Below are positions 298 through 9,731 of a stretch of DNA of 9,731 nucleotides, piece after piece (positions within the stretch are counted from its first letter, which is position 1; every line of letters starts with the position of its first letter). Below the pieces are notes generated by a model that did not search any database, was not told the DNA's origin, and saw only the letters and a list, made by a program, of their open reading frames with translations. The position numbers and the translations under genes were made by a program. Source of the stretch: a virus. Lineage: Duplodnaviria > Heunggongvirae > Uroviricota > Caudoviricetes. The DNA is taken from the IMG/VR virus record IMGVR_UViG_2713896772_000022. One strand, written 5' to 3'.

Positions 298-570
298 TCA
301 GACAGGAATTTGCTGACGGTTTGACAGCTTTGACGCGGAGCCATAGCGATTGAGAGTTTGCTGTTGTTTTTCCGGTATTTTTGCTTTGTCTGATTCCTGT
401 TCATTGCACCGAGGCTTCATAATTATCGTATCCACGCTTTCCAGTGCGGTAAATGTGCAGGAACATTCCAGATTCTGGCACTGATACCATGAGCGTTTAA
501 CCGACGGAGCTTCATAGGCGCTGGTTCTGGCGTGAGCGACCGCGCCACATTCAGGACACTTCAGGGCCAT
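298..570 (-). CDS. delta: Ogr/Delta-family zinc-finger late-gene transcriptional activator (90 aa)
   Basis: MALKCPECGAVAHARTSAYEAPSVKRSWYQCQNLECSCTFTALESV closely resembles P2 Ogr as I recall it (MFHCPLCQHAAHARTS...YHQCQNVNCSATF..ESV), with the C-x2-C...C-x4-C zinc motif. ATG at 570 chosen over the track start at 672 because the protein then starts at the conserved motif; GGAG lies ~10 nt upstream; ATG follows the psu stop (TGA 574-572) by one base. Confidence 0.85.
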   Translation of the reverse strand: MALKCPECGAVAHARTSAYEAPSVKRSWYQCQNLECSCTFTALESVDTIIMKPRCNEQESDKAKIPEKQQQTLNRYGSASKLSNRQQIPV

Positions 571-571
571 A

Positions 572-1126
572 TCAGCACACTCCTTTTTCATTAAGTCGGT
601 TAAGGCGGGCCAGGAAAACTTTATGTTGTGCCGGGGTGAAACTGGCTGAAGCATCAGCGCGCATTGATGCATCCACCGTTAATCCGGTTTCGTCGATAAT
701 GCTCTTATATGCTGCTGAAATTACCGGAGTACGCATTTCCGTTTGTCGGGCTACAGCGGTTCGTAATATTTTCATTGCCGCCTCAAGCCCGTATGGAGCG
801 CAAAGAAAAGGAGCCAGAGCGTCAGTGAGTGCATCACCATGCTCGCTCATGAAGTTTTCCGTTGCGCTTGTAACACAACTCTCCAGCACAATCTGATGAG
901 CATAAAGACCATCCCGTGCAGCACAGTTAATCTGCCATTCGAGGACTGCAAGACGCTCACGAAGATCCTCAAGCTGGCTGGCATATGCTGCCGGTTTTTC
1001 TTCAGTATCCAGCAGAGCCGCCAGACGAAGCTGGTAGGTACTTTGCGTATTACGTAGTGTCAGCCAGCTTTTTATCGCCGAGCGGTAATCGTTGAGTGCT
1101 TCCTGAGTAATGGTTCCGGCATTCAT
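572..1126 (-). CDS. psu: Polarity suppression protein Psu (184 aa)
   Basis: Segments FMSEHGDALTDALAPFL and ASFTPAQHKVFLAR match my recollection of P4 Psu (FMQQHGTALAAALAPEL; EKFTPAQNMIFSRK); length close to 190 aa. ATG at 1126-1124 overlaps the upstream stop TGA 1125-1123 (ATGA coupling). Confidence 0.85.
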   Translation of the reverse strand: MNAGTITQEALNDYRSAIKSWLTLRNTQSTYQLRLAALLDTEEKPAAYASQLEDLRERLAVLEWQINCAARDGLYAHQIVLESCVTSATENFMSEHGDALTDALAPFLCAPYGLEAAMKILRTAVARQTEMRTPVISAAYKSIIDETGLTVDASMRADASASFTPAQHKVFLARLNRLNEKGVC

Positions 1127-1875
1127 TTCTTCTCGCCCCCTTTAACCATGTCACGCTGTTTAAGCATCCGTGAACGCGCTGCAGGGCTGGGGGATTGTCT
1201 GGCATCCTGGATGGCTTTATCGTCCGCATAAATGCTGATCCCCGGCAGGGTAATATCATCGGTTGAAGATACGTTACAGGACAGTGCCGGAGTGGTGAGT
1301 TGCTCGCTGATAAATTGCTTCAGCACACTTTCGGGGTCGTTTACGGTATGAACTACACCGATAACAGCAGAAGCGCTTCGGCCCAGAGTCATTTTCAGCA
1401 GTCCAAGGATCTGAATAAGTTTCTGACCGTGTTCCTTCATAAACTCATTCCAGAGCCACACTGCATGAGTTTCAATCAGGCGATTATGTTCGCTGATGTA
1501 GTGGTTTGCAGCATCCGCAGTTTTCCAGGGCAGGAATTCATTTTCTGCCGCCTGAGCTGCCAGCAAATCTTCGAACTCATCCAGTGTTTCGCGTCCGAGG
1601 GCGATTTCTGCCCGCAGTTTTTTCATGCGTGGCGTCATATTTCCCTGATTCTCACGAAACAGGTTTCGCCATTCATCATTAAGCGCCTGCGTTTCCGTTT
1701 TTGTATCTTCCTGACGTTTACGGATAGTTTCAATCATTGCAGCAGCTTCAGTTTGTTTTCGTCGTTCTTCCTGCCAGACAGCTTTTGCTGCCTTAACTTT
1801 ATCCACCGCTTCGCGAATTTTCGGTGGGAGGGAGGGTGTAATGTTTGCATCAGGGATCTGGTTAACAGTAGTCAT
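1123..1875 (-). CDS. sid: Sid-like capsid size determination protein (putative, 250 aa)
   Basis: First gene of the late operon, immediately upstream of and coupled to psu; charged, helix-prone N-terminal half; size close to P4 Sid (244 aa). Track start at 1908 is TTG; the ATG at 1875 has GGAG 7 nt upstream. Assignment is by synteny and composition, not recognised motifs. Confidence 0.55.
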   Translation of the reverse strand: MTTVNQIPDANITPSLPPKIREAVDKVKAAKAVWQEERRKQTEAAAMIETIRKRQEDTKTETQALNDEWRNLFRENQGNMTPRMKKLRAEIALGRETLDEFEDLLAAQAAENEFLPWKTADAANHYISEHNRLIETHAVWLWNEFMKEHGQKLIQILGLLKMTLGRSASAVIGVVHTVNDPESVLKQFISEQLTTPALSCNVSSTDDITLPGISIYADDKAIQDARQSPSPAARSRMLKQRDMVKGGEKK

Positions 1876-1995
1876 GACTGCTCCGGTAGTGTTTTGTTGT
1901 TGTGTCAATTGTGCCGGGGTCCATACAAGCGCACTACCGAGGAGGATTGTGTCAGTGACTGAACAATGACCTTGTTCTGGCTAGCCAGAGAAAGG

Positions 1996-2013: not shown

Positions 2014-2030
2014 CGCTTCCTTTAATACAT

Positions 2031-2050
2031 ACTATTCACTACTGTTCACT
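2031..2050 (+). repeat. Tandem 10-bp direct repeat ACTATTCACT / ACTGTTCACT (TTCAC iteron-like)
   Basis: Read directly; contains TGTTCACT, one mismatch from the TGTTCACC octamer I recall as the P4 alpha-binding type I iteron. Confidence 0.45.
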
Positions 2051-2114
2051 TCAATAAAAATATAGTAAATACATGTGGTTAAGTGGTGTAGTGTTTTAAT
2101 TAAAGTGATCATCT

Positions 2115-2134
2115 ACTGTTCATGACTGTTCACA
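2115..2134 (+). promoter_or_regulatory. Tandem ACTGTTCATG / ACTGTTCACA repeat that also forms a TGT-N12-ACA box (2117-2134); iteron and/or PLL-like activator site
   Basis: Read directly. A CATATAAG -10-like hexamer lies at 2164-2171, ~45 bp downstream. The site is ~660 bp upstream of the alpA-like ATG, so the promoter assignment is weak. Confidence 0.35.
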
Positions 2135-2210
2135 GAGATAAAATTAAACATATATTTCTTTTTCATATAAGTCGCGATATTTATTTCAGTTTATTACTGG
2201 ATCTTTTCTC

Positions 2211-2250
2211 CTCACCAATATTCACCAGTATTCACCAGTATTCAATACAT
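2211..2250 (+). repeat. Four tandem 10-bp units CTCACCAATA / TTCACCAGTA / TTCACCAGTA / TTCAATACAT (ori-like iteron array)
   Basis: Read directly; helical-phase 10-bp periodicity and a TTCACC core. Confidence 0.5.
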
Positions 2251-2789
2251 ATTCTATGTAAAGAATAAAAGATGTCTTATGTCTGTTTAATAATTAAACA
2301 TTCAACCTCCCTGCACTCAGTTGCATTTCAGGAAAATATTCATAAAAATGAATTTGTCTGATGTTCATTAAACACATCCGGATACATGCGGAAGTAAGAT
2401 GGTAATTTAATTTCTTTAATCATCGGATTTATTGATACATATGGTGAGCTGTTTATTTTTGGCCGTTTTGGCTCTTTTATTAATCAGGTGTTGTCTTAGT
2501 GCTTATGATGTAACGCCCTGAATGATATGGGCTGGTTCAGATTTGAGCTGTGATCCTGCCTAGTGTAATAGACTTTTTTATTATTGATGCTCCTTATTAT
2601 ATTCCATAAAGGAATTGTTTGTTTTTGTTCGTTTCATACGGTTTTTAGCTGTTTTATTTTTTGAGAAATCAACATTTCACACAAAATAAATAAAGCATGC
2701 GCGAGCCGCTTATATAAACATAATAAGGAGCTACCTGAATCCGCATGGAATTGCCCGGACTGTTGTAAACATATTAGAGAGGTAGCCAG

Positions 2790-3050
2790 ATGAATAGTAT
2801 TTCCGTTTCCACCCCGGCACCAGCTGCTCCGGTGCTCCCGGTTCCGGCTCAGCAGGAGCGCTTCATACGATTACCTGAAGTGATGCACCTTTGCGGGCTA
2901 TCCCGTTCAACCATCTACGACCTTATCAGCCGCGATGCCTTCCCGCAGCAGATATCCCTGGGTGGAAAAAATGTGGCCTGGGTACAGTCGGAGGTCAGTG
3001 CATGGATGGCGGCGCGAATTGCTGCCCGCGAGCAAGGAGGCCATGCGTGA
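2790..3050 (+). CDS. AlpA/Vis-family phage transcriptional regulator (86 aa)
   Basis: [47 protein letters not shown] has the AlpA-family helix-turn-helix signature (LSRSTIY...FP..LGGR.V.W...E). ATG at 2790 with GAGAGG ~8 nt upstream; stop TGA 3048-3050. Confidence 0.85.
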
Positions 3051-3115: not shown

Positions 3116-3144
3116 TTTCCCGCTGCCGCAAAATCGGCTGCCGG

Positions 3145-3177
3145 GCGTAGGAACCCGAGTTACTTATTGGCGACACC
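3145..3177 (+). promoter_or_regulatory. seqA-like target sequence (GCGTAGGAAC ... TACTTATTGG)
   Basis: Blocks GTAGGAA and CTTATTGG are exactly complementary to TTCCTAC (3321-3327) and CCAATAAG (3306-3313) downstream; the same two blocks recur at 3352-3392. Confidence 0.4.
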
Positions 3178-3178
3178 A

Positions 3179-3200
3179 GACGCGCCGTGCGTCTTTTTTT
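3179..3200 (+). terminator. Hairpin GACGC-GCCGT-GCGTC followed by T7 (terminator-like; possible immunity terminator or RNA structure)
   Basis: 5-bp GC stem at 3179-3183 / 3189-3193 and a run of seven T at 3194-3200, immediately after the seqA-like element. Confidence 0.4.
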
Positions 3201-3239
3201 ACGTCGTTGCTCAGGCACACCCATTTTTCGGGCTGCGGT

Positions 3240-3340
3240 GCTTATACCTTAGCCCCTTTCAGATAATGGTGGTCCGGGCGGGGCAGCCTTCGGGCTGGCC
3301 GGTTTCCAATAAGGCCGGTATTCCTACCCCCGTTCGGGTC
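3240..3340 (+). ncRNA. Candidate CI-like immunity RNA containing a seqB-like segment (3303-3330); boundaries approximate
   Basis: GC-rich untranslated stretch with several short hairpins (e.g. GCC-TTCG-GGC; CCGG...CCGG) and a segment antisense to both seqA-like and seqC-like. No convincing ORF with a ribosome-binding site. Confidence 0.25.
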
Positions 3341-3351
3341 ACCACCCATGA

Positions 3352-3595: not shown

Positions 3596-3819
3596 TGAAT
3601 CACGCCGCAATCTCTTATGACGATATTCTCCGCCTGAAGCATCTTCGTAACGTGGGAGAGTTTGTCACTGGAATGGCTGTTCTTCAGGATTGCTACGAAA
3701 AACCTGCCAGTGCTCAATGTGAACAACTGGTTTCCCTGATTTATCTGATGACAGAGCAGCTTGATGGCGTGGTACAGCGTTGCCAGGATGACCTCATGAA
3801 CATGGAGGTGGTGCAATGA
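3595..3819 (+). CDS. Hypothetical small protein (74 aa)
   Basis: ATG at 3595 preceded by GGGAGGTGA about 6 nt upstream; the track's upstream extension starts at a non-ATG codon. Stop TGA 3817-3819 overlaps the next ATG (ATGA). Confidence 0.55.
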
Positions 3820-4139
3820 AATCACGCACTCTTTCCCTTTCACTTCGGGTAGCGTTGTATCGCCGCGCGGTAGCCTGCGCCTGGTTGAGTGCCTGCTATC
3901 AGCAAAACCGCCATCTGCAGCTCACTCTGGATGAAATTGAAACCGCTATTGCCCGTGAGCTTGAAGGATTTTATCTGCGACAGCACGGGCAAACAAAAGG
4001 CATGGAAATCGCCTGCGCCCTGCTTTCAGACCTGATGGAATACGGCCCTCTAATGTCCTGTCCCGCACTCTCCCAGCTCGGAATAGCCGTAATGGATGAG
4101 TTATGCGTCCGTCACATCAAAAAGCCGGTTTTACACTGA
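3816..4139 (+). CDS. Hypothetical protein (107 aa), immediately upstream of the primase
   Basis: ATG at 3816 with GGAGGTGG upstream; translationally coupled to the previous gene; stop TGA 4137-4139 is 14 nt before the primase ATG. Confidence 0.6.
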
Positions 4140-4153
4140 GGGAGAACTGCGTC

Positions 4154-6487
4154 ATGTCAGGAATGAAAGTCAGTCAGGCCGTGAAGGCTGCCCGCGGTCA
4201 CTGGGCTCAGATTCTGCCAGCGCTGGGCGTGAATATATTGAAAAATCGCCATCAGCCTTGCCCGGTCTGTGGCGGTAAAGATCGTTTTCGCTTCGACGAT
4301 CAGGAAGGACGCGGAACATGGTTCTGCAATCAGTGCGGAGCCGGGGATGGTTTAGCGCTTGTCACCAGGGCACTGAATGTGGATATCAGTGAAGCAGCTG
4401 ACAGGATACATGGACTGACACATGATCTGTCTGTAGTTAATTCCGAGGTCAGGACGTTAACCGCCGATACCGATAGCGGGAAAGATGCAGCGGCAGCACT
4501 TGCCGCGCGACTGCTGCAAGCCTCGCGTGAATCTGCCGGAAACACTTATCTTACACATAAAGGTTTCCCGGAGCATATTTGCCATGAGCTGACTTCAGCT
4601 CATAAGGCCGGTGGTATGATGTTCCGCCCCGGTGATTTGATCGTCCCACTCTATAACGCTGACGGGGAGCTGGTGAATATTCAGCTCATCAGTGGCAATG
4701 GTAGCAAGTGTTTTCTTAAAGGAGGTCAGGTTAAGGAGGCCTATCATCTGATAGAAGGGGGCGGGAGTTCTGTAAGAAGGATTTGGATTGCGGAAGGTTA
4801 CGCCACGGCGCTTACCATTCATTATTTGACAGGAGAAGCCGTCATGGTGGCATTTTCGTCGGTCAACTTTCTTTCTCTGAGCAGCGTTGCCCATAATAAG
4901 TATCCGGGATATCAGTTAATTATTGCAGCGGACCGCGATCTGAATGGTTCAGGCCAGAACAGGGCTGAAACTGCTGCAAAAGCGAGTCAGTGTGACATTG
5001 TGCTGCCACCGGTTTTTGGTGACTGGAATGATGCGCTTACCCAATACGGAGAGGAATCCACCCGGAAGGCAATTCTTGAGGCTTTGAAGCCACATAACGC
5101 CAGTCCTTTCGACACAATGAGTGAAGCAGAATTCACAGCGATGAGTGTCAGCGAAAAAGCTCAGAGGGTTCGGGAGCATTACAGGGATGCACTGGCGGTT
5201 GATCCGAACGGGCAGCTTTTATCCCGCTACGAGTCTGGAGCGTGGAAAGTTATTTCTCAGTCAGATTTTGCCCGAGATGTCGCAGCCCTTTTCCAGCGCC
5301 TCGGGGCACCGTTTTCCTCAGGAAAAATTGCCTCACTGGTGGAAACATTAAAGTTAATTGTTCCGCAGCAGCAAAATCCGTCACGTCATCTGATTGGTTT
5401 TCGTAATGGCGTTCTCGATACGCGAACAGGGCTTTTTAGTCCGCACTGTAAAGAGAACTGGCTGCGTACCCTGTGTGAAGTCGATTTCACGCCACCGGTA
5501 AAGGGGGAAACGCTTGAAACTCATGCCCCGGCATTCTGGCGTTGGCTGGACCGGGCCGCCGGACACAAGCCAGCAAAACGCGACATTATTCTTGCAGCGT
5601 TATTTATGGTGCTGGCGAACCGCTATGACTGGCAGCTCTTTCTGGAAGTGACTGGCCCTGGTGGAAGTGGCAAAAGTATTCTGGCTGAAATTGCGACCAT
5701 GCTTGCTGGAGAGGATAACGCCACCTCTGCGACCATTGAAACGCTGGAGTCCTCGCGAGAACGTGCGGCTCTGATAGGTTTTTCTCTTATTCGCCTGCCT
5801 GATCAGGAGAAGTGGAGCGGCGACGGCGCCGGGCTTAAGGCTATAACTGGTGGCGATGCAGTATCTGTGGACCCCAAATATCAGAATGCTTATTCAACAC
5901 ATATTCCGGCGGTTATCTTGGCCGTAAATAATAATCCTATGCGCTTCACTGATCGCAGTGGTGGTGTGTCCCGCAGGAGAGTTATTCTGCATTTTCCTGA
6001 GCAGATAGCACCGGAAGAACGCGATCCGCAGTTGAAAGATAAAATTGCACGAGAACTGGCTGTGATTGTTCGTCAGCTCATGCAGCGTTTCAGCGATCCG
6101 ATGAGCGCCAGAACATTGCTTCAGTCGCAGCAGAATTCTGATGAGGCTCTCACCATCAAGCGTGATGCTGATCCAGCATTTGATTTTTGTGGCTACCTTG
6201 AGGCATTACCTGACACCAACGGTATGTTTATGGGGAACGCCAATATTGTCCCACGCCAGCCACGTACATACCTTTACCATGCCTACCTCGTATACATGGA
6301 GGCTAATGGCTATAAAAACACCCTGAGTCTTACGATGTTTGGCAAAGGGTTGCCAGTCATGCTGAAGGAGTACGGGCTACATTATGAGAAACGGCGAACT
6401 AATCAGGGAATGCAAACTAACCTCACTTTGAAAGAGGAGAGTAATGCAGACTGGCTGCCCAAGTGTGATGAGCCAATATTAAAATAA
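4154..6487 (+). CDS. alpha: P4 alpha-type bifunctional DNA primase/helicase (777 aa)
   Basis: N-terminal zinc ribbon CPVCGGKDRFRFDD...CNQCG; Toprim-like IAEGYATALT and AADRD; Walker A VTGPGGSGKS of a D5/SF3-type helicase. ATG at 4154 has GAGGGAG 9 nt upstream and gives 777 aa, the length I recall for P4 alpha; the track start at 4103 is an alternative. Confidence 0.92.
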   Translation: MSGMKVSQAVKAARGHWAQILPALGVNILKNRHQPCPVCGGKDRFRFDDQEGRGTWFCNQCGAGDGLALVTRALNVDISEAADRIHGLTHDLSVVNSEVRTLTADTDSGKDAAAALAARLLQASRESAGNTYLTHKGFPEHICHELTSAHKAGGMMFRPGDLIVPLYNADGELVNIQLISGNGSKCFLKGGQVKEAYHLIEGGGSSVRRIWIAEGYATALTIHYLTGEAVMVAFSSVNFLSLSSVAHNKYPGYQLIIAADRDLNGSGQNRAETAAKASQCDIVLPPVFGDWNDALTQYGEESTRKAILEALKPHNASPFDTMSEAEFTAMSVSEKAQRVREHYRDALAVDPNGQLLSRYESGAWKVISQSDFARDVAALFQRLGAPFSSGKIASLVETLKLIVPQQQNPSRHLIGFRNGVLDTRTGLFSPHCKENWLRTLCEVDFTPPVKGETLETHAPAFWRWLDRAAGHKPAKRDIILAALFMVLANRYDWQLFLEVTGPGGSGKSILAEIATMLAGEDNATSATIETLESSRERAALIGFSLIRLPDQEKWSGDGAGLKAITGGDAVSVDPKYQNAYSTHIPAVILAVNNNPMRFTDRSGGVSRRRVILHFPEQIAPEERDPQLKDKIARELAVIVRQLMQRFSDPMSARTLLQSQQNSDEALTIKRDADPAFDFCGYLEALPDTNGMFMGNANIVPRQPRTYLYHAYLVYMEANGYKNTLSLTMFGKGLPVMLKEYGLHYEKRRTNQGMQTNLTLKEESNADWLPKCDEPILK

Positions 6488-6523: not shown

Positions 6524-6548
6524 GGAAACGCACAAATGTAGAGATAGC

Positions 6549-6575
6549 TGTTCACTCTTCACCTCGCTGTTAACA
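6549..6575 (+). repeat. crr-like iteron cluster: TGTTCAC, TTCACC and the palindrome TGTTAACA
   Basis: Read directly. Further inverted copies at 6610-6617 (GGTGAATA) and 6750-6756 (GTGAACA). The same motif family recurs ~4.4 kb away at 2031-2250. Confidence 0.45.
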
Positions 6576-6837
6576 CGTAAGCAATTGATATATAAGTTAA
6601 AAATGGCAGGGTGAATAGTGTGCATGGTTTTGCGAAAAAAAAGTATTTTTTGTAGAGTCAAGTCCCGGTTTGGATCCGTTTAACGGAACCTAACTAGATT
6701 GACTATTTCTCTGATGATTTTTGGATAAATAATCAACAAAAATCAAAATGTGAACAGAGAATGGTGGGGGCACAAAAAGGGGCATAATTGAATTAATTAT
6801 AATTAAATTTCAATTTTTACAATAGGTTAAATGTGTG

Positions 6838-6859
6838 TGCGAGTCCGGCCTTCGCACCA
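6838..6859 (+). other. att core-like sequence (partial tRNA 3' end ...GAGTCCGGCCTTCGCACCA); putative attR and satellite boundary
   Basis: TGCGAGTCCGGCCTTCGCACCA resembles the T-loop/acceptor 3' end of tRNA-Leu leuX and the P4 attP core as I recall them, with one missing G. No complete tRNA lies upstream (AT-rich), so it is a partial copy. The coding character changes downstream. Confidence 0.5.
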
Positions 6860-7392: not shown

Positions 7393-8217
7393 ATGATAAA
7401 GCCATTTTCTGTGAGGTATGGTCATGTTGACGTTAGAGAGCATGTCCAGCTGAATGATCTTAATTCTGATACACGCATGGCATTGTGGAATTGCTTATAT
7501 CTTTTCCTTTGGACTAACAATCGTCAAACTGCTACAGCAACAAAATGTGCGCAGTCTGTGTGGATATATTATCTAAATCAACCTGCGGATAATATTCCTC
7601 GTTATGAAAGTGGATACAAAAGTGATAAGACGTTGCTGACTGCTATCCGAGATTATATATATGGGGAAGCATGGTATTTGGTATATGATTTAATTGAGTT
7701 CATCATTGAGAGAACTAATTCATATATTAATCTATCGAAGCATCTCAATTCCATCTTTAAAAAGCATGGCGTTGGTTATACCATAATAAATGGTTGTATT
7801 ACTCCTATTTCAAATGATAACGAAATTGAAAGTGTTCAGAACGCAGTTGATAATGGCACTGATTCATCGCGTAGCCATTTCGAAAGGGCGTTACAACTAA
7901 TGACGGATAGAGAGCAGCCAGACTACAGAAACTCGATTAAAGAGTCTATCTCTGCAATTGAATCTTTATGCAGGAAAATCACGGGCAATGATAAAGGAAC
8001 CTTGGGGGCTTGTCTTAAAGCTATAGAGGAAAAAGGATATATACACTCTGCAATGAAAGGCGCTTTTAGTCAGCTCTATGGTTATACAAGTGATCAGGGT
8101 GGAATACGTCATGCGCTAACAGAAGAAGATGTAAATCCTACCTTAGCTGAAGCTAAATTTATGTTAGTCACTTGCAGTGCGTTCAGTAATTATCTGTTGT
8201 CAAAAATAAGTGATTAA
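7393..8217 (+). CDS. Hypothetical protein (274 aa), low-GC cargo; function unknown
   Basis: ATG at 7393 with GGGGAAG upstream; long uninterrupted ORF with AT-rich codon usage unlike the satellite core; stop TAA 8215-8217 followed by a strong hairpin. No motif I can assign with confidence. Confidence 0.75.
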   Translation: MIKPFSVRYGHVDVREHVQLNDLNSDTRMALWNCLYLFLWTNNRQTATATKCAQSVWIYYLNQPADNIPRYESGYKSDKTLLTAIRDYIYGEAWYLVYDLIEFIIERTNSYINLSKHLNSIFKKHGVGYTIINGCITPISNDNEIESVQNAVDNGTDSSRSHFERALQLMTDREQPDYRNSIKESISAIESLCRKITGNDKGTLGACLKAIEEKGYIHSAMKGAFSQLYGYTSDQGGIRHALTEEDVNPTLAEAKFMLVTCSAFSNYLLSKISD

Positions 8218-8265: not shown

Positions 8266-8838
8266 TTATTCACCAGACTCTAATCTTTTTTCTCTTTTCT
8301 CATCTCTCCTTTTTATTGCCAAATCGTGTTGCTCTTGCAGATACGTGCGTTCTTCGTTTCTATCGCTTGAAGTATATACGTCTGCTTTTACTTTTTTAGC
8401 TCCTTGTGCAATAGGTTTCCAATCCTCTCTTATACCTTTAATTTGTTCTGCAATTTGCGTCAATGGGCTTCTCGCTCCTAGATAACTTATTCCTTCAAAT
8501 GTCGCCATGTCATACACATATTCATTTGTTTCTCTATCGTTTGATTTAGGTTTGCTTGCCCAGCTTATATTAATATTATAAATTTGATCTTTGATTTGTT
8601 CATACTTACAGAGATTGCTGGTAAGTGATTGCCCATTTTTTAACACGCTTACCTTACTAAACGGAATCTCACTTTTTTCTCTATGCTCCGCATTTACTAG
8701 TGGAGGATCAAACACAACCTCAACATTATAGGCAGGTGCGTTCCCTGTATTAGCAATGTTAATATCAAAGTAAAAAGCGGCCCAAGGGTTTGGCTCAAGT
8801 GTTACAACTATATGGGGTTGAGCTGATGCGTCAACCAT
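8266..8838 (-). CDS. Hypothetical protein (~190 aa), low-GC cargo; 5' end abuts the IS911 terminus
   Basis: The track ORF (208 aa) starts at GTG 8892, inside the IS-end sequence. The first ATG is at 8838 (MVDASAQPHIVV...) with only a weak Shine-Dalgarno. N-terminal half looks beta-rich, C-terminal tail highly charged (KRRDEKREKRLE). Confidence 0.6.
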   Translation of the reverse strand: MVDASAQPHIVVTLEPNPWAAFYFDINIANTGNAPAYNVEVVFDPPLVNAEHREKSEIPFSKVSVLKNGQSLTSNLCKYEQIKDQIYNINISWASKPKSNDRETNEYVYDMATFEGISYLGARSPLTQIAEQIKGIREDWKPIAQGAKKVKADVYTSSDRNEERTYLQEQHDLAIKRRDEKREKRLESGE

Positions 8839-8938
8839 TCTTTTTGTCTCGTCTGCTCTGAAGTGGTGAAGTGGTTTACTGAATTTGGCCACCTGAACAG
8901 AGGTGATATGCTCACCTCAGAACAACACAGGTGCTCCA

Positions 8939-9731
<793 letters not shown>

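What the first reader, a model, noticed from the sequence alone, without database searches (positions are those of the whole stretch)
2031..2250. Ori-like cluster of TTCAC iterons in 10-bp tandem units upstream of the alpA-primase operon
Three separate tandem arrays (2031-2050, 2115-2134, 2211-2250) repeat a T(G/A)TTCAC(C/T) core with helical-turn spacing. The core matches, or is one mismatch from, the TGTTCACC octamer I recall as the binding site of the P4 alpha C-terminal domain at ori and crr. The AT-rich surroundings suit an unwinding region.
Basis: partly seen in the sequence, partly recalled or inferred. Interest (0 to 1): 0.5.

Follow-up and report, generated by a model that had tools for sequence, protein, structure and literature searches.

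The report
P4-type origin plus helper-sensor repeats
The repeats are real: the first two arrays are this E. coli P4-like satellite prophage's copy of the known phage P4 replication origin, and the third is more likely a docking site for a helper phage's regulator than part of the origin.

Summary
Observation confirmed. T[AG]TTCA[CT] occurs 8 times on the + strand of the 914-bp sid-alpA spacer against 0.7 expected. Three pairs sit exactly 10 bp apart, seen in 0 of 5000 shuffles.

The window is a P4-like satellite prophage: delta-psu-sid, alpA, CI RNA, a cnr-like gene, and a primase 73% identical to P4 alpha.

Arrays 1 and 2 (2030-2049, 2104-2133) align position for position with the type 1 repeats (TGTTCACC) of the annotated P4 ori. 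The same pair / AT-rich spacer / inverted copy / triple layout is conserved in 53 P4-like loci across Enterobacterales. A single crr-like unit follows the primase gene. This is an ordinary, diverged member of the known P4 ori1/crr origin. Two of its six iterons are degenerate, and none matches the octamer exactly.

Array 3 (2212-2250) lies where P4 has its "type 2 repeats", which are P2 Cox boxes upstream of P_LL. It closely matches phased arrays found at both the attP arm and the lysis-lysogeny switch of a 186-like Yersinia phage. It is probably a helper Cox/Apl-type box array, though alpha binding is not excluded.

No binding or replication was tested.

The parts
2030..2049 (+). Type 1 iteron pair (TACTATTCAC TACTGTTCAC). 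Homolog of the P4 ori type 1 repeats at 9413-9396.
   Evidence: Near-invariant across 53 P4-like loci and across 7 E. coli relatives.
2050..2083 (.). AT-rich spacer of the origin (TTCAATAAAAATATAGTAAATACATGTGGTTAAG). Homolog of the P4 segment TTAATAAAAAAGATAAGTAATACAGTAAGTTAAAG. Presumed unwinding region.
   Evidence: Alignment; conservation profile; GC content.
2084..2091 (-). Degenerate inverted type 1 iteron. It reads GGTGTAGT where the family consensus and P4 9353-9360 read GGTGAACA.
   Evidence: These positions are highly conserved in the family and diverged here.
2104..2133 (+). Type 1 iteron triple: a degenerate first copy (TGATCAT, 2106-2112), then TGTTCAT (2117-2123) and TGTTCAC (2127-2133). 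Homolog of P4 9338-9310.
2212..2250 (+). Array 3: four to five units of (T)ATTCA at a 10-bp phase (CCTCACCAAT ATTCACCAGT ATTCACCAGT ATTCAATACA TATTC). Positional equivalent of P4's type 2 repeats, which are P2 Cox boxes. Probably a helper Cox/Apl-type box array.
   Evidence: (one unit fewer in relatives 98-99% identical).
2319..2349 (+). P_LL-like promoter core (AGTTGCATTTCAGGAAAATATTCATAAAAAT) 69 bp downstream of array 3. Aligns with the P4 P_LL core CTGTTGCGTCTGCTGAAAATATTCACAAAAT.
   Evidence: GTTGCATTTCA is invariant in 7 relatives. Promoter activity is inferred.
2709..2789 (+). Proximal P_LL-like -10/leader segment, homologous to the P4 leader upstream of vis (GCTACC.GAA.CCG ... GAGGTAGCC.GATG).
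1948..1965 (.). TGT-N12-ACA dyad (TGTGTCAGTGACTGAACA). Candidate Ogr/Delta activator site of the leftward sid promoter, at the same place as TGTGCCAGCCCTGACACA in P4.
   Evidence: That TGT-N12-ACA is the activator site is from my own knowledge of P2/P4 late promoters.
2790..3050 (+). alpA/vis homolog, first gene of the rightward replication operon.
   Evidence: Pfam Phage_AlpA, E = 4e-20. 64% identical to P4 ORF88.
3816..4139 (+). DUF5375 protein, homolog of P4 ORF106. I recall this as cnr, the copy-number regulator that acts on alpha.
   Evidence: The cnr identity is from memory.
4154..6487 (+). Alpha-type primase-helicase, 777 aa, with a C-terminal winged-helix origin-binding domain (residues 671-770).
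   Evidence: 73% identical to P4 alpha. Pfam zinc-ribbon / Toprim / D5_N / Pox_D5 domains. C-terminus matches PDB 1KA8, E = 2e-48.
6540..6652 (.). Single crr-like unit: CTGTTCACTCTTCACC (6548-6563), GGTGAATAGTGTGCATGG (6610-6627), then an A8/T6 tract. Aligns with each 120-bp repeat of P4 crr.
6839..6859 (+). attR-like copy of the tRNA-Leu 3' end (GCGAGTCCGGCCTTCGCACCA). Marks the right end of the satellite.
   Evidence: tRNA-Leu end in L002 4825-4849.

Best explanation
The region holds two different cis elements of a P4-like satellite prophage. The prophage is integrated at tRNA-Leu in E. coli O26, O103 and related strains.

(1) Replication origin, 2030-2133. This stretch is the homolog of P4 ori1. 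It consists of a direct pair of type 1 iterons, an AT-rich spacer, one inverted iteron and a direct triple.
- By homology, the C-terminal winged-helix domain of the element's own alpha primase-helicase (4154-6487) binds these iterons and the crr-like unit downstream of its gene (6540-6652).
- Alpha would then open the AT-rich spacer, unwind and prime, with the cnr-like protein (3816-4139) modulating binding.
- The sequence homology and layout are shown. Binding and firing are inferred.
- This copy is diverged: the inverted iteron and the first iteron of the triple are degenerate, and no site matches TGTTCACC exactly.

(2) Probable helper-sensor array, 2212-2250. This is most likely not part of the minimal origin.
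- It is the counterpart of P4's 'type 2 repeats', which are the P2 Cox boxes upstream of the late promoter P_LL.
- It is a head-to-tail array at one helical turn that probably binds the Cox/Apl-type recombination-directionality factor of a cognate 186/P2-like helper phage.
- The factor would activate the P_LL-like promoter just downstream (2319-2349), and so switch on the alpA-...-alpha replication operon when the helper enters lytic growth.

My probabilities: about 0.9 for part (1) and about 0.6 for part (2).
For: Context:
- The window is 100% identical to E. coli O26:H11, O103 and other chromosomes. The prophage order there is tRNA-Leu, int, cargo, delta-psu-sid, spacer, alpA..., primase.
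- The Pfam hits are Ogr_Delta, Psu, Phage_AlpA, DUF5375 and primase-helicase. C4/CI RNA and isrK are present.
- Alpha is 73% identical to P4 alpha. Its C-terminus matches the solved P4 origin-binding domain 1KA8.

Origin (arrays 1 and 2):
- P4's GenBank record places rep_origin 9086-9809 between ORF88/vis and sid, with six type 1 repeats and three 10-bp type 2 repeats.
- In the MAFFT alignment, window 2030-2049 falls on P4 9413-9396 and window 2114-2133 on P4 9327-9310. The AT-rich spacer between them is conserved.
- In 60-odd P4-like loci with alpha 57-82% identical, the pattern of pair, inverted copy and triple recurs at fixed spacing. The iteron columns are the most conserved columns.
- They are also invariant among E. 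coli relatives whose flanks are only about 70-78% identical.
- A crr-like unit follows the primase gene.
- PMC4234260 states that P4 alpha binds the origin repeats by its winged-helix domain, then unwinds and primes.

Array 3:
- It aligns with P4's type 2 repeats, and a P_LL-like core follows at a similar distance: 69 bp here against 53 bp in P4.
- P4's type 2 repeats read CACTTAAAGT CATTTAAAGC CACTTAAAGC, that is, three Cox boxes TTAAA(G/C)NC(A/C) (PMC3936717, PMC5009727).
- In 20 of 64 P4-like loci the equivalent array is TTGCCA-type, against 0.03 expected in shuffles. That is the phage 186 Apl operator.
- The block (C)CTCAC[C/T]AATATTCACCA[G/A][T/C]ATTCA is shared with Yersinia phage vB_YenM_06.16-2. 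There it occurs next to int at the attP arm and again between the repressor and Cox-like genes, which are the two places where Apl and Cox bind (PMC7498355).
- In IMG/VR contigs that carry P2 or P4 genes, the 16-mer occurs only at array 3 of this satellite lineage and at those two sites of YenM-like prophages.
- A second, independent pair behaves the same way. A Klebsiella satellite array shares 29 of 30 bases with the attP arm of E. coli phage ESSI2_ev015, which encodes a Cox-like protein of the same family.
- Close relatives of the window have one 10-bp unit fewer.
Against: - Nothing was tested biochemically.
- Origin: two of the six iterons are degenerate at positions that are highly conserved in the family, and crr is a single, partly degenerate unit. 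From memory of Tocchetti et al. 1999, deleting one iteron inactivates P4 ori1. This copy may therefore fire poorly or not at all.
- Array 3: its unit TATTCACC is exactly one of the variants that P4's record annotates as a type 1 repeat in crr. It is on the same strand as arrays 1 and 2, and crr also contains phased TTCACC repeats. Alpha binding is therefore not excluded.
- The short blastn hit that led to the Yersinia phage had E = 4 on a database-wide scale.
- No E. coli helper with ATTCAC arrays was found. 80 prophages with a P2-type gene A had none, and the YenM cox DNA has no match in E. coli.
- That the YenM arrays bind its Cox-like protein is itself inferred from their location.
- The promoter at 2319-2349 is only a sequence homolog, a second P_LL-like segment lies at 2709-2735, and about 360 bp of unexplained DNA separates the two.
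Confidence: 0.7

Rival explanations
1. All three arrays are alpha-binding iterons of one extended origin. Array 3 would be an accessory, crr-like iteron block placed next to ori1, perhaps compensating for the weak crr downstream of alpha.
For: TATTCACC is annotated as a type 1 repeat variant in P4 crr. Array 3 is on the same strand as arrays 1 and 2. P4 crr has phased TTCACC copies (TTCACC-GTATA-TTCACC-CGTTA-TCAC). In relatives, the first full unit reads CTATTCACC, a good 9-mer iteron. The window's crr is single and degenerate.
Against: - Array 3 is the positional counterpart of P4's Cox boxes, not of its type 1 repeats.
- In other lineages this position holds arrays unrelated to the iteron, either Apl-type TTGCCA or Cox boxes.
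- The distal units (TATTCAAT, TATTCTAT; TATTCAGG in O157) lose the CAC core that is invariant in true iterons.
- It is out of helical phase with array 2: 92 bp, or 8.8 turns.
- The extended block, including CCTCAC and the flanking TATGTAA(A)G, matches a helper phage's attP and switch arrays.
- From memory, the minimal P4 ori1 of 123 bp excludes the type 2 position.
Confidence: 0.25
2. Array 3 is an operator for the satellite's own AlpA/Vis protein. Like other excisionase-type regulators, Vis binds phased direct repeats and regulates P_LL.
For: AlpA/Vis is a winged-helix protein of the recombination-directionality type. P4 Vis is reported to regulate late promoters and to bind attP (cited in PMC2603039 and PMC7498355). 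Factors of this type bind direct repeats one helical turn apart (PMC7498355).
Against: No ATTCA-type array lies between attL and int of this element. That stretch carries (G/A)TCC repeats at a 10-bp phase, shared with P4 attP. P4 Vis is 64% identical to this AlpA, yet P4 has Cox boxes at the equivalent site. The motif recurs in helper-type phages that encode a different, Cox-like protein.
Confidence: 0.07
3. The cluster is a decayed relic: homologous to P4 ori but no longer functional, in a prophage that is being eroded by insertion sequences.
For: Two of six iterons are degenerate at conserved positions. There is no exact TGTTCACC. crr is single and degenerate. IS66 and IS3 elements and cargo lie inside or next to the element. 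The attR copy has a 1-bp deletion.
Against: The alpha reading frame is intact at 777 aa. The same degenerate layout is kept in this lineage across 184 E. coli genomes and many IMG/VR contigs. The iterons are invariant while the flanks diverge to about 70-78% identity. That is the pattern expected under selection.
Confidence: 0.2
4. The repeats are ordinary transcription-factor operators for the divergent sid and alpA promoters and have nothing to do with replication.
For: The spacer holds the divergent late promoters, and a TGT-N12-ACA activator site lies at 1948-1965.
Against: Arrays 1 and 2 are the positional and sequence homologs of repeats annotated as the P4 origin, which the literature reports as alpha-bound (PMC4234260). 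The same motif recurs downstream of the primase gene, as in crr.
Confidence: 0.03

Closest known systems
Phage P4 bipartite origin ori1 + crr, used by the alpha primase-helicase (GenBank NC_001609 rep_origin 9086-9809; crr 4291-4590)
   Same: - Same location, between sid and vis/alpA.
- Same order of elements: iteron pair, AT-rich spacer, inverted iteron, triple.
- Same core, T(G/A)TTCAC, at 10-11 bp spacing.
- The cognate alpha is 73% identical, with a conserved 1KA8-type origin-binding domain.
- A cnr-like gene is present, and a crr-like unit follows alpha.
   Different: - No exact TGTTCACC; the final C is lost in arrays 1 and 2.
- The inverted iteron and the first of the triple are degenerate.
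- crr is one unit instead of two 120-bp repeats.
- The spacer between origin and alpA is about 390 bp longer than in P4.
[quoted passage not shown]
   Same: Three to five head-to-tail units at a 10-bp phase. Same position relative to the type 1 iterons and to a P_LL-like core. Sequence matches operator-like arrays of a helper-type phage (PMC3936717).
   Different: The unit is (T)ATTCAC(C), not TTAAA(G/C)NC(A/C). The matching helper protein would belong to a different Cox-like family, 'MRPNITI...'. No cognate helper was found in E. coli. Activation is untested.
Phage 186 Apl operators (TGGCAA/TTGCCA at pR-pL and attP)
   Same: Same logic: short direct repeats 10-11 bp apart, present both at the switch and at attP of the helper. 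20 of 64 P4-like satellites carry TTGCCA-type arrays at the type 2 position.
   Different: The window has no TTGCCA array. Its array is of the ATTCAC type.
Iteron origins of SaPI/PICI satellites and of theta plasmids (Rep or primase-helicase binding to phased iterons flanking an AT-rich region)
   Same: General architecture and presumed mechanism. This comparison rests on my own knowledge and was not tested here.
   Different: The initiator families are unrelated. The bipartite ori/crr arrangement is specific to P4.

Membership tests
P4-type ori1/crr origin | Lies in the intergenic region between sid and vis/alpA of a P4-like element | tested here: met
   P4 annotation; window and host context; synteny in more than 60 loci.
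P4-type ori1/crr origin | Type 1 iterons (TGTTCACC-like) arranged as direct pair, AT-rich spacer, inverted copy, direct triple, at about helical spacing | tested here: met
   Position-for-position alignment with P4; family-wide layout.
P4-type ori1/crr origin | All six iterons intact (from memory of Tocchetti et al. 1999, loss of one inactivates P4 ori1) | tested here: not met
   2084-2091 reads GGTGTAGT against the consensus GGTGAACA, and 2106-2112 reads TGATCAT. No exact octamer. This bears on activity, not on homology.
P4-type ori1/crr origin | Cognate alpha primase-helicase with a C-terminal winged-helix origin-binding domain | tested here: met
   73% identity to P4 alpha; match to 1KA8, E = 2e-48; Pfam domains.
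P4-type ori1/crr origin | Second cis site (crr) with type 1 iterons downstream of alpha | tested here: met
   One unit at 6540-6652 aligns with both P4 crr repeats. P4 has two units.
P4-type ori1/crr origin | Alpha binds the iterons and the fragment supports alpha-dependent replication | not testable with these tools
   Needs EMSA or footprinting and a plasmid replication assay.
Helper Cox/Apl box array upstream of P_LL (as in P4) | Head-to-tail direct repeats one helical turn apart | tested here: met
   Period 10, 3.3 copies, 95% matches; four-unit chain at 2219-2250.
Helper Cox/Apl box array upstream of P_LL (as in P4) | Sits upstream of the P_LL promoter at the position of P4's Cox boxes | tested here: inconclusive
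   It aligns with P4 9176-9205, and a P_LL-like core follows at 2319-2349. However, a second P_LL-like segment lies at 2709-2735 and no promoter was mapped.
Helper Cox/Apl box array upstream of P_LL (as in P4) | Same motif present in a helper-type phage at both the attP arm and the immunity switch | tested here: met
   vB_YenM_06.16-2; IMG/VR prophages with the motif at exactly those two sites; parallel pair L028 and ESSI2_ev015. The cognate E. coli helper was not found.
Helper Cox/Apl box array upstream of P_LL (as in P4) | Matches the P2 Cox box TTAAA(G/C)NC(A/C) or the 186 Apl box TTGCCA | tested here: not met
   No chain of either motif in the window spacer. If it is a box array, it serves a different helper protein family.
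Helper Cox/Apl box array upstream of P_LL (as in P4) | Bound by the helper protein, with activation of the satellite operon | not testable with these tools
   Needs EMSA and reporter or induction assays.

The most novel reading that the evidence does not exclude
The 'type 2 repeats' next to the origin of P4-like satellites may be a modular, lineage-specific helper sensor. Each satellite would carry a phased copy of the operator array of its cognate helper's Cox/Apl-type excisionase-regulator.

The types seen so far are:
- P2 Cox boxes in P4;
- 186 Apl-type TTGCCA boxes in about a third of the satellites sampled;
- ATTCA-type boxes in this E. coli lineage and in a Klebsiella satellite.

If so, satellite-helper pairing and the induction trigger could be read from sequence. 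Array 3 of this window would be such a sensor for a helper that has not yet been identified in E. coli.
Probability: 0.55. Interest if true: 0.55.

Novelty: new member of a known kind. Interest (0 to 1): 0.3.

Why it matters
The origin itself is routine. It fills in an unannotated spacer (RefSeq lists no feature there) in a satellite prophage common in pathogenic E. coli O26, O103 and O157. It also shows that the P4 ori1 layout is conserved across Enterobacterales.

The more useful result concerns the third array. If phased arrays next to the origin copy the operator of the helper's Cox/Apl protein, then sequence alone could show which helper phage wakes a given P4-like satellite. That is relevant to predicting mobilisation of the defence and virulence cargo these satellites carry, and to engineering P4-based delivery particles. 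The idea extends one known case (P2 Cox at P4 P_LL) and can be tested directly by gel shift and reporter assays.

Tried and rejected
- blastn of 1900-2800 against the phage collection found nothing. The homology to P4 is visible only by alignment.
- The classic P4 papers (Ziegelin 1993; Tocchetti 1999) are not in the held library. Their content is cited from memory or through PMC4234260 and PMC2777425. A full-text search for TGTTCACC returned only unrelated primer sequences.
- I looked for P4's type 2 motif near P4 attP, as a test of the idea that it binds Vis. It is absent there. A search for TATTCACCAG around this prophage's att and int region likewise found no array.
- Exact-pattern scans of IMG/VR for three TATTCA units returned satellites of this lineage and unrelated repeats, but no P2-like phage.
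- 80 E. coli prophages with a P2-type gene A have no ATTCAC or TATTCA arrays in their switch regions.
- The YenM cox DNA has no match in complete E. coli genomes. E. coli prophages with Cox-like proteins of the same family carry other arrays. The cognate E. coli helper therefore remains unidentified.
- The first L028 / ESSI2_ev015 alignment used wrong coordinates and was repeated.
- The 48-aa ORF at 2122-2268 that overlaps the arrays, and the short ORFs in 2270-2790, have no support and are treated as chance.

Full report
**What is in the sequence.** The three arrays exist within one base of the stated coordinates:
- 2030-2049: TACTATTCAC TACTGTTCAC.
- 2114-2133: ACTGTTCATG ACTGTTCACA.
- 2212-2250: CCTCACCAAT ATTCACCAGT ATTCACCAGT ATTCAATACA TATTC.

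Both repeat tools recover them.

They are far more than chance. TRTTCAC occurs 12 times in the window against 2.5 expected, with five copies on the + strand of 2033-2235. Dinucleotide shuffles of the AT-rich spacer alone give 0.70 T[AG]TTCA[CT] sites against 8 observed, and 0.001 pairs at exactly 10 bp against 3 observed. None of 5000 shuffles reaches either value. GC content falls to 27-29% here. No site is an exact TGTTCACC; the best have one mismatch.

**Context.** The window is 100% identical to chromosomes of E. coli O26:H11, O103 and others. It is a P4-like satellite prophage at tRNA-Leu. The gene order is int, cargo and IS66, then delta, psu and sid on the minus strand, then the 914-bp spacer. 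Rightward from the spacer come alpA, an Icd-like gene, a DUF5375 gene and a 777-aa primase-helicase. Rfam finds isrK and the C4/CI immunity RNA at 3122-3349. The primase is 73% identical to P4 alpha over its full length. Its residues 671-770 match the solved P4 origin-binding domain 1KA8. A copy of the tRNA-Leu 3' end at 6839-6859 marks the right end of the element.

**Arrays 1 and 2 are the P4 ori1 homolog.**
- The P4 record annotates its origin (9086-9809) exactly between ORF88/vis and sid. It lists six 8-bp 'type 1 repeats' that read TGTTCACC, three 10-bp 'type 2 repeats', and further type 1 repeats in crr downstream of alpha.
- In the alignment with P4, window 2030-2049 falls on P4 9413-9396. 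The AT-rich stretch TTCAATAAAAATATAGTAAATACA falls on TTAATAAAAAAGATAAGTAATACA. Window 2084-2091 falls on the inverted repeat 9353-9360, and window 2104-2133 on the triple 9338-9310.
- I fetched 80 loci that encode alpha relatives (57-82% identity) from genomes across Enterobacterales. The sid / spacer / alpA synteny holds in them. Iterons sit at nearly fixed offsets, typically -376 and -366, an inverted copy at -322, then -301, -290 and -280 from the alpA start.
- In a 53-sequence alignment the iteron columns and part of the AT-rich spacer are the most conserved columns.
- Among E. coli relatives whose spacers are only about 70-87% identical, both arrays are invariant.
- Downstream of the primase gene, 6540-6652 aligns with each 120-bp repeat of P4 crr.
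- PMC4234260 summarises the mechanism for P4: alpha binds the origin repeats with its winged-helix domain, then unwinds and primes.

By homology, this is the element's origin.

**How this copy differs from P4.** The inverted iteron reads GGTGTAGT against the consensus GGTGAACA, and the first of the triple reads TGATCAT. Both changes are at strongly conserved positions. crr is a single, partly degenerate unit. From memory of Tocchetti et al. 1999, which is not in the held library, the minimal P4 ori1 is 123 bp with six iterons and a 35-bp AT-rich region, and it does not tolerate loss of an iteron. Activity here is therefore an open question. Against simple decay, alpha is intact and the layout is kept in 184 E. 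coli genomes.

**Array 3 is probably something else.**
- It aligns with P4's type 2 repeats and is followed 69 bp later by AGTTGCATTTCAGGAAAATATTCATAAAAAT. This matches the P4 P_LL core, which lies 53 bp beyond the type 2 repeats.
- P4's type 2 repeats read CACTTAAAGT CATTTAAAGC CACTTAAAGC. These are three Cox boxes of consensus TTAAA(G/C)NC(A/C). P2 Cox binds upstream of P_LL and activates it, which derepresses P4 (PMC3936717, PMC5009727).
- Across the related loci, this position, usually 170-210 bp upstream of alpA, holds 3-5 phased units whose sequence differs by lineage. In 20 of 64 loci the units are TTGCCA-type, against 0.03 expected.
- TTGCCA/TGGCAA is what the annotated Apl sites of phage 186 read, both at pR-pL and at attP. 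Factors of this class bind head-to-tail repeats one helical turn apart (PMC7498355).
- A short blastn of array 3 hit a 186-like Yersinia phage, vB_YenM_06.16-2, next to its integrase gene. The hit had E = 4, so it is not significant on its own.
- Reading that genome showed the same array twice. CCCTCACTAATATTCACCAACATTCACTATGTAAG lies at the attP arm. GCTCACTAATATTCACCAATATTCACTAATGG lies between the repressor and Cox-like genes.
- The four-way alignment has 22 invariant columns in the roughly 26-nt block.
- In IMG/VR, among contigs with recognisable P2 or P4 genes, the 16-mer CTCACNANTATTCACC occurs only at array 3 of this satellite lineage and at exactly those two places in YenM-like prophages.
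- A second pair behaves alike. A Klebsiella satellite (L028) carries, next to its origin, an array that shares a 17-mer and 29 of 30 bases with the attP arm of E. coli phage ESSI2_ev015. That phage has the same ATTC-phased array in its switch and encodes a Cox-like protein of the same family.
- L028 additionally has a different phased array (ACCAAT/GGCCAA-type units) at the usual type 2 position, about 180 bp upstream of alpA.
- Relatives of the window that are 98-99% identical have one 10-bp unit fewer, so copy number varies.

**What keeps the rival alive.** TATTCACC is itself annotated as a type 1 variant in P4 crr. Array 3 is co-oriented with arrays 1 and 2. crr contains phased TTCACC copies. 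I also found no E. coli helper with ATTCAC arrays:
- 80 prophages with a P2-type gene A had none.
- The YenM cox DNA is absent from complete E. coli genomes.
- E. coli prophages with related Cox-like proteins carry other arrays that track differences in their recognition region.

The element's own AlpA is a weaker candidate. The attL-int stretch carries (G/A)TCC repeats at a 10-bp phase, not ATTCA repeats.

**Verdict.**
- The origin interpretation is right for arrays 1 and 2. That makes them an ordinary, diverged member of the known P4 ori1/crr system (probability about 0.9).
- Array 3 is more likely a helper Cox/Apl-type box array upstream of a P_LL-like promoter (about 0.6) than a set of alpha iterons (about 0.25).
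- All binding and activity steps are inferred.
- The origin part deserves low interest. The sensor reading, and its apparent generality across P4-like satellites, is a modest and testable extension of the P2 Cox / P4 P_LL case. I found no description of it in the held literature.

Noticed in passing
window 6540-6652: A single crr-like unit lies downstream of the primase terminator: CTGTTCACTCTTCACC ... GGTGAATAGTGTGCATGG ... A8/T6. It aligns with each 120-bp repeat of P4 crr. P4 has two units, and many relatives have one or none within 450 bp.
   Followed up: partly
window 6839-6859 (and L002 4825-4849): GCGAGTCCGGCCTTCGCACCA copies the tRNA-Leu 3' end with a 1-bp deletion and is presumably attR. 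The AbiJ-NTD4 gene (7393-8217), the ORF at 8266-8892 and the IS3 element therefore lie outside the satellite.
   Followed up: partly
window 2350-2708: About 360 bp of AT-rich DNA with no credible ORF separates a distal P_LL-like core (2319-2349) from a proximal P_LL-like -10/leader segment (2709-2789). It looks like an insertion with partial duplication of the promoter. It is shared with L050, L028 and E. coli O157/O55 relatives but absent from P4 and most loci. Its function is unknown.
   Followed up: partly
window 2219-2238 versus L083 and L084: Array 3 shows a copy-number polymorphism. Relatives 98-99% identical (strains UTAK-15, ST70) have one TATTCACCAG unit fewer.
   Followed up: yes
loci L003-L082, about 170-210 bp upstream of alpA: 20 of 64 P4-like satellites carry 3-5 phased TTGCCA/TGGCAA units, which is the phage 186 Apl operator motif. 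Another 8 carry GGCCAA-type units. Only P4 itself carries P2 Cox boxes. This suggests lineage-specific helper sensors.
   Followed up: partly
L028 4125-4195 and L328 775-850: The origin-adjacent array of a Klebsiella P4-like satellite is 29/30 identical to the attP-arm array of E. coli phage ESSI2_ev015. That phage repeats the ATTC-phased motif in its repressor/cox switch.
   Followed up: yes
window 4670-4679 (-) and 8267-8276 (+): There are two further exact copies of the 10-mer TATTCACCAG, one inside the alpha gene and one at the end of the ORF 8266-8892. About 0.06 such copies are expected per 34 kb. No explanation.
   Followed up: no
L002 4920-4959 (between tRNA-Leu/attL and int); P4 L001 about 3955-3990: Four (G/A)TCC units at an exact 10-bp phase (GTCCTGAGCT GTCCGAGCTA GTCCGTTGAA ATCCGGATGC), partly shared with P4 attP. 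These are candidate Vis/AlpA excisionase sites.
   Followed up: no
window 3122-3199 and 3262-3349: isrK (72 bits) and C4/CI antisense RNA (83 bits) lie downstream of alpA, so the P4-type RNA immunity region is intact.
   Followed up: no
window 298-1875: The late operon order is sid-psu-delta with a short Ogr-like delta (annotated 90 aa), against sid-delta-psu in P4. The Sid homolog gives a weak Psu-family Pfam hit.
   Followed up: no
window 1948-1965: TGTGTCAGTGACTGAACA is a TGT-N12-ACA dyad at the same place as P4's TGTGCCAGCCCTGACACA upstream of sid. It is probably the Ogr/Delta site of the sid promoter.
   Followed up: partly
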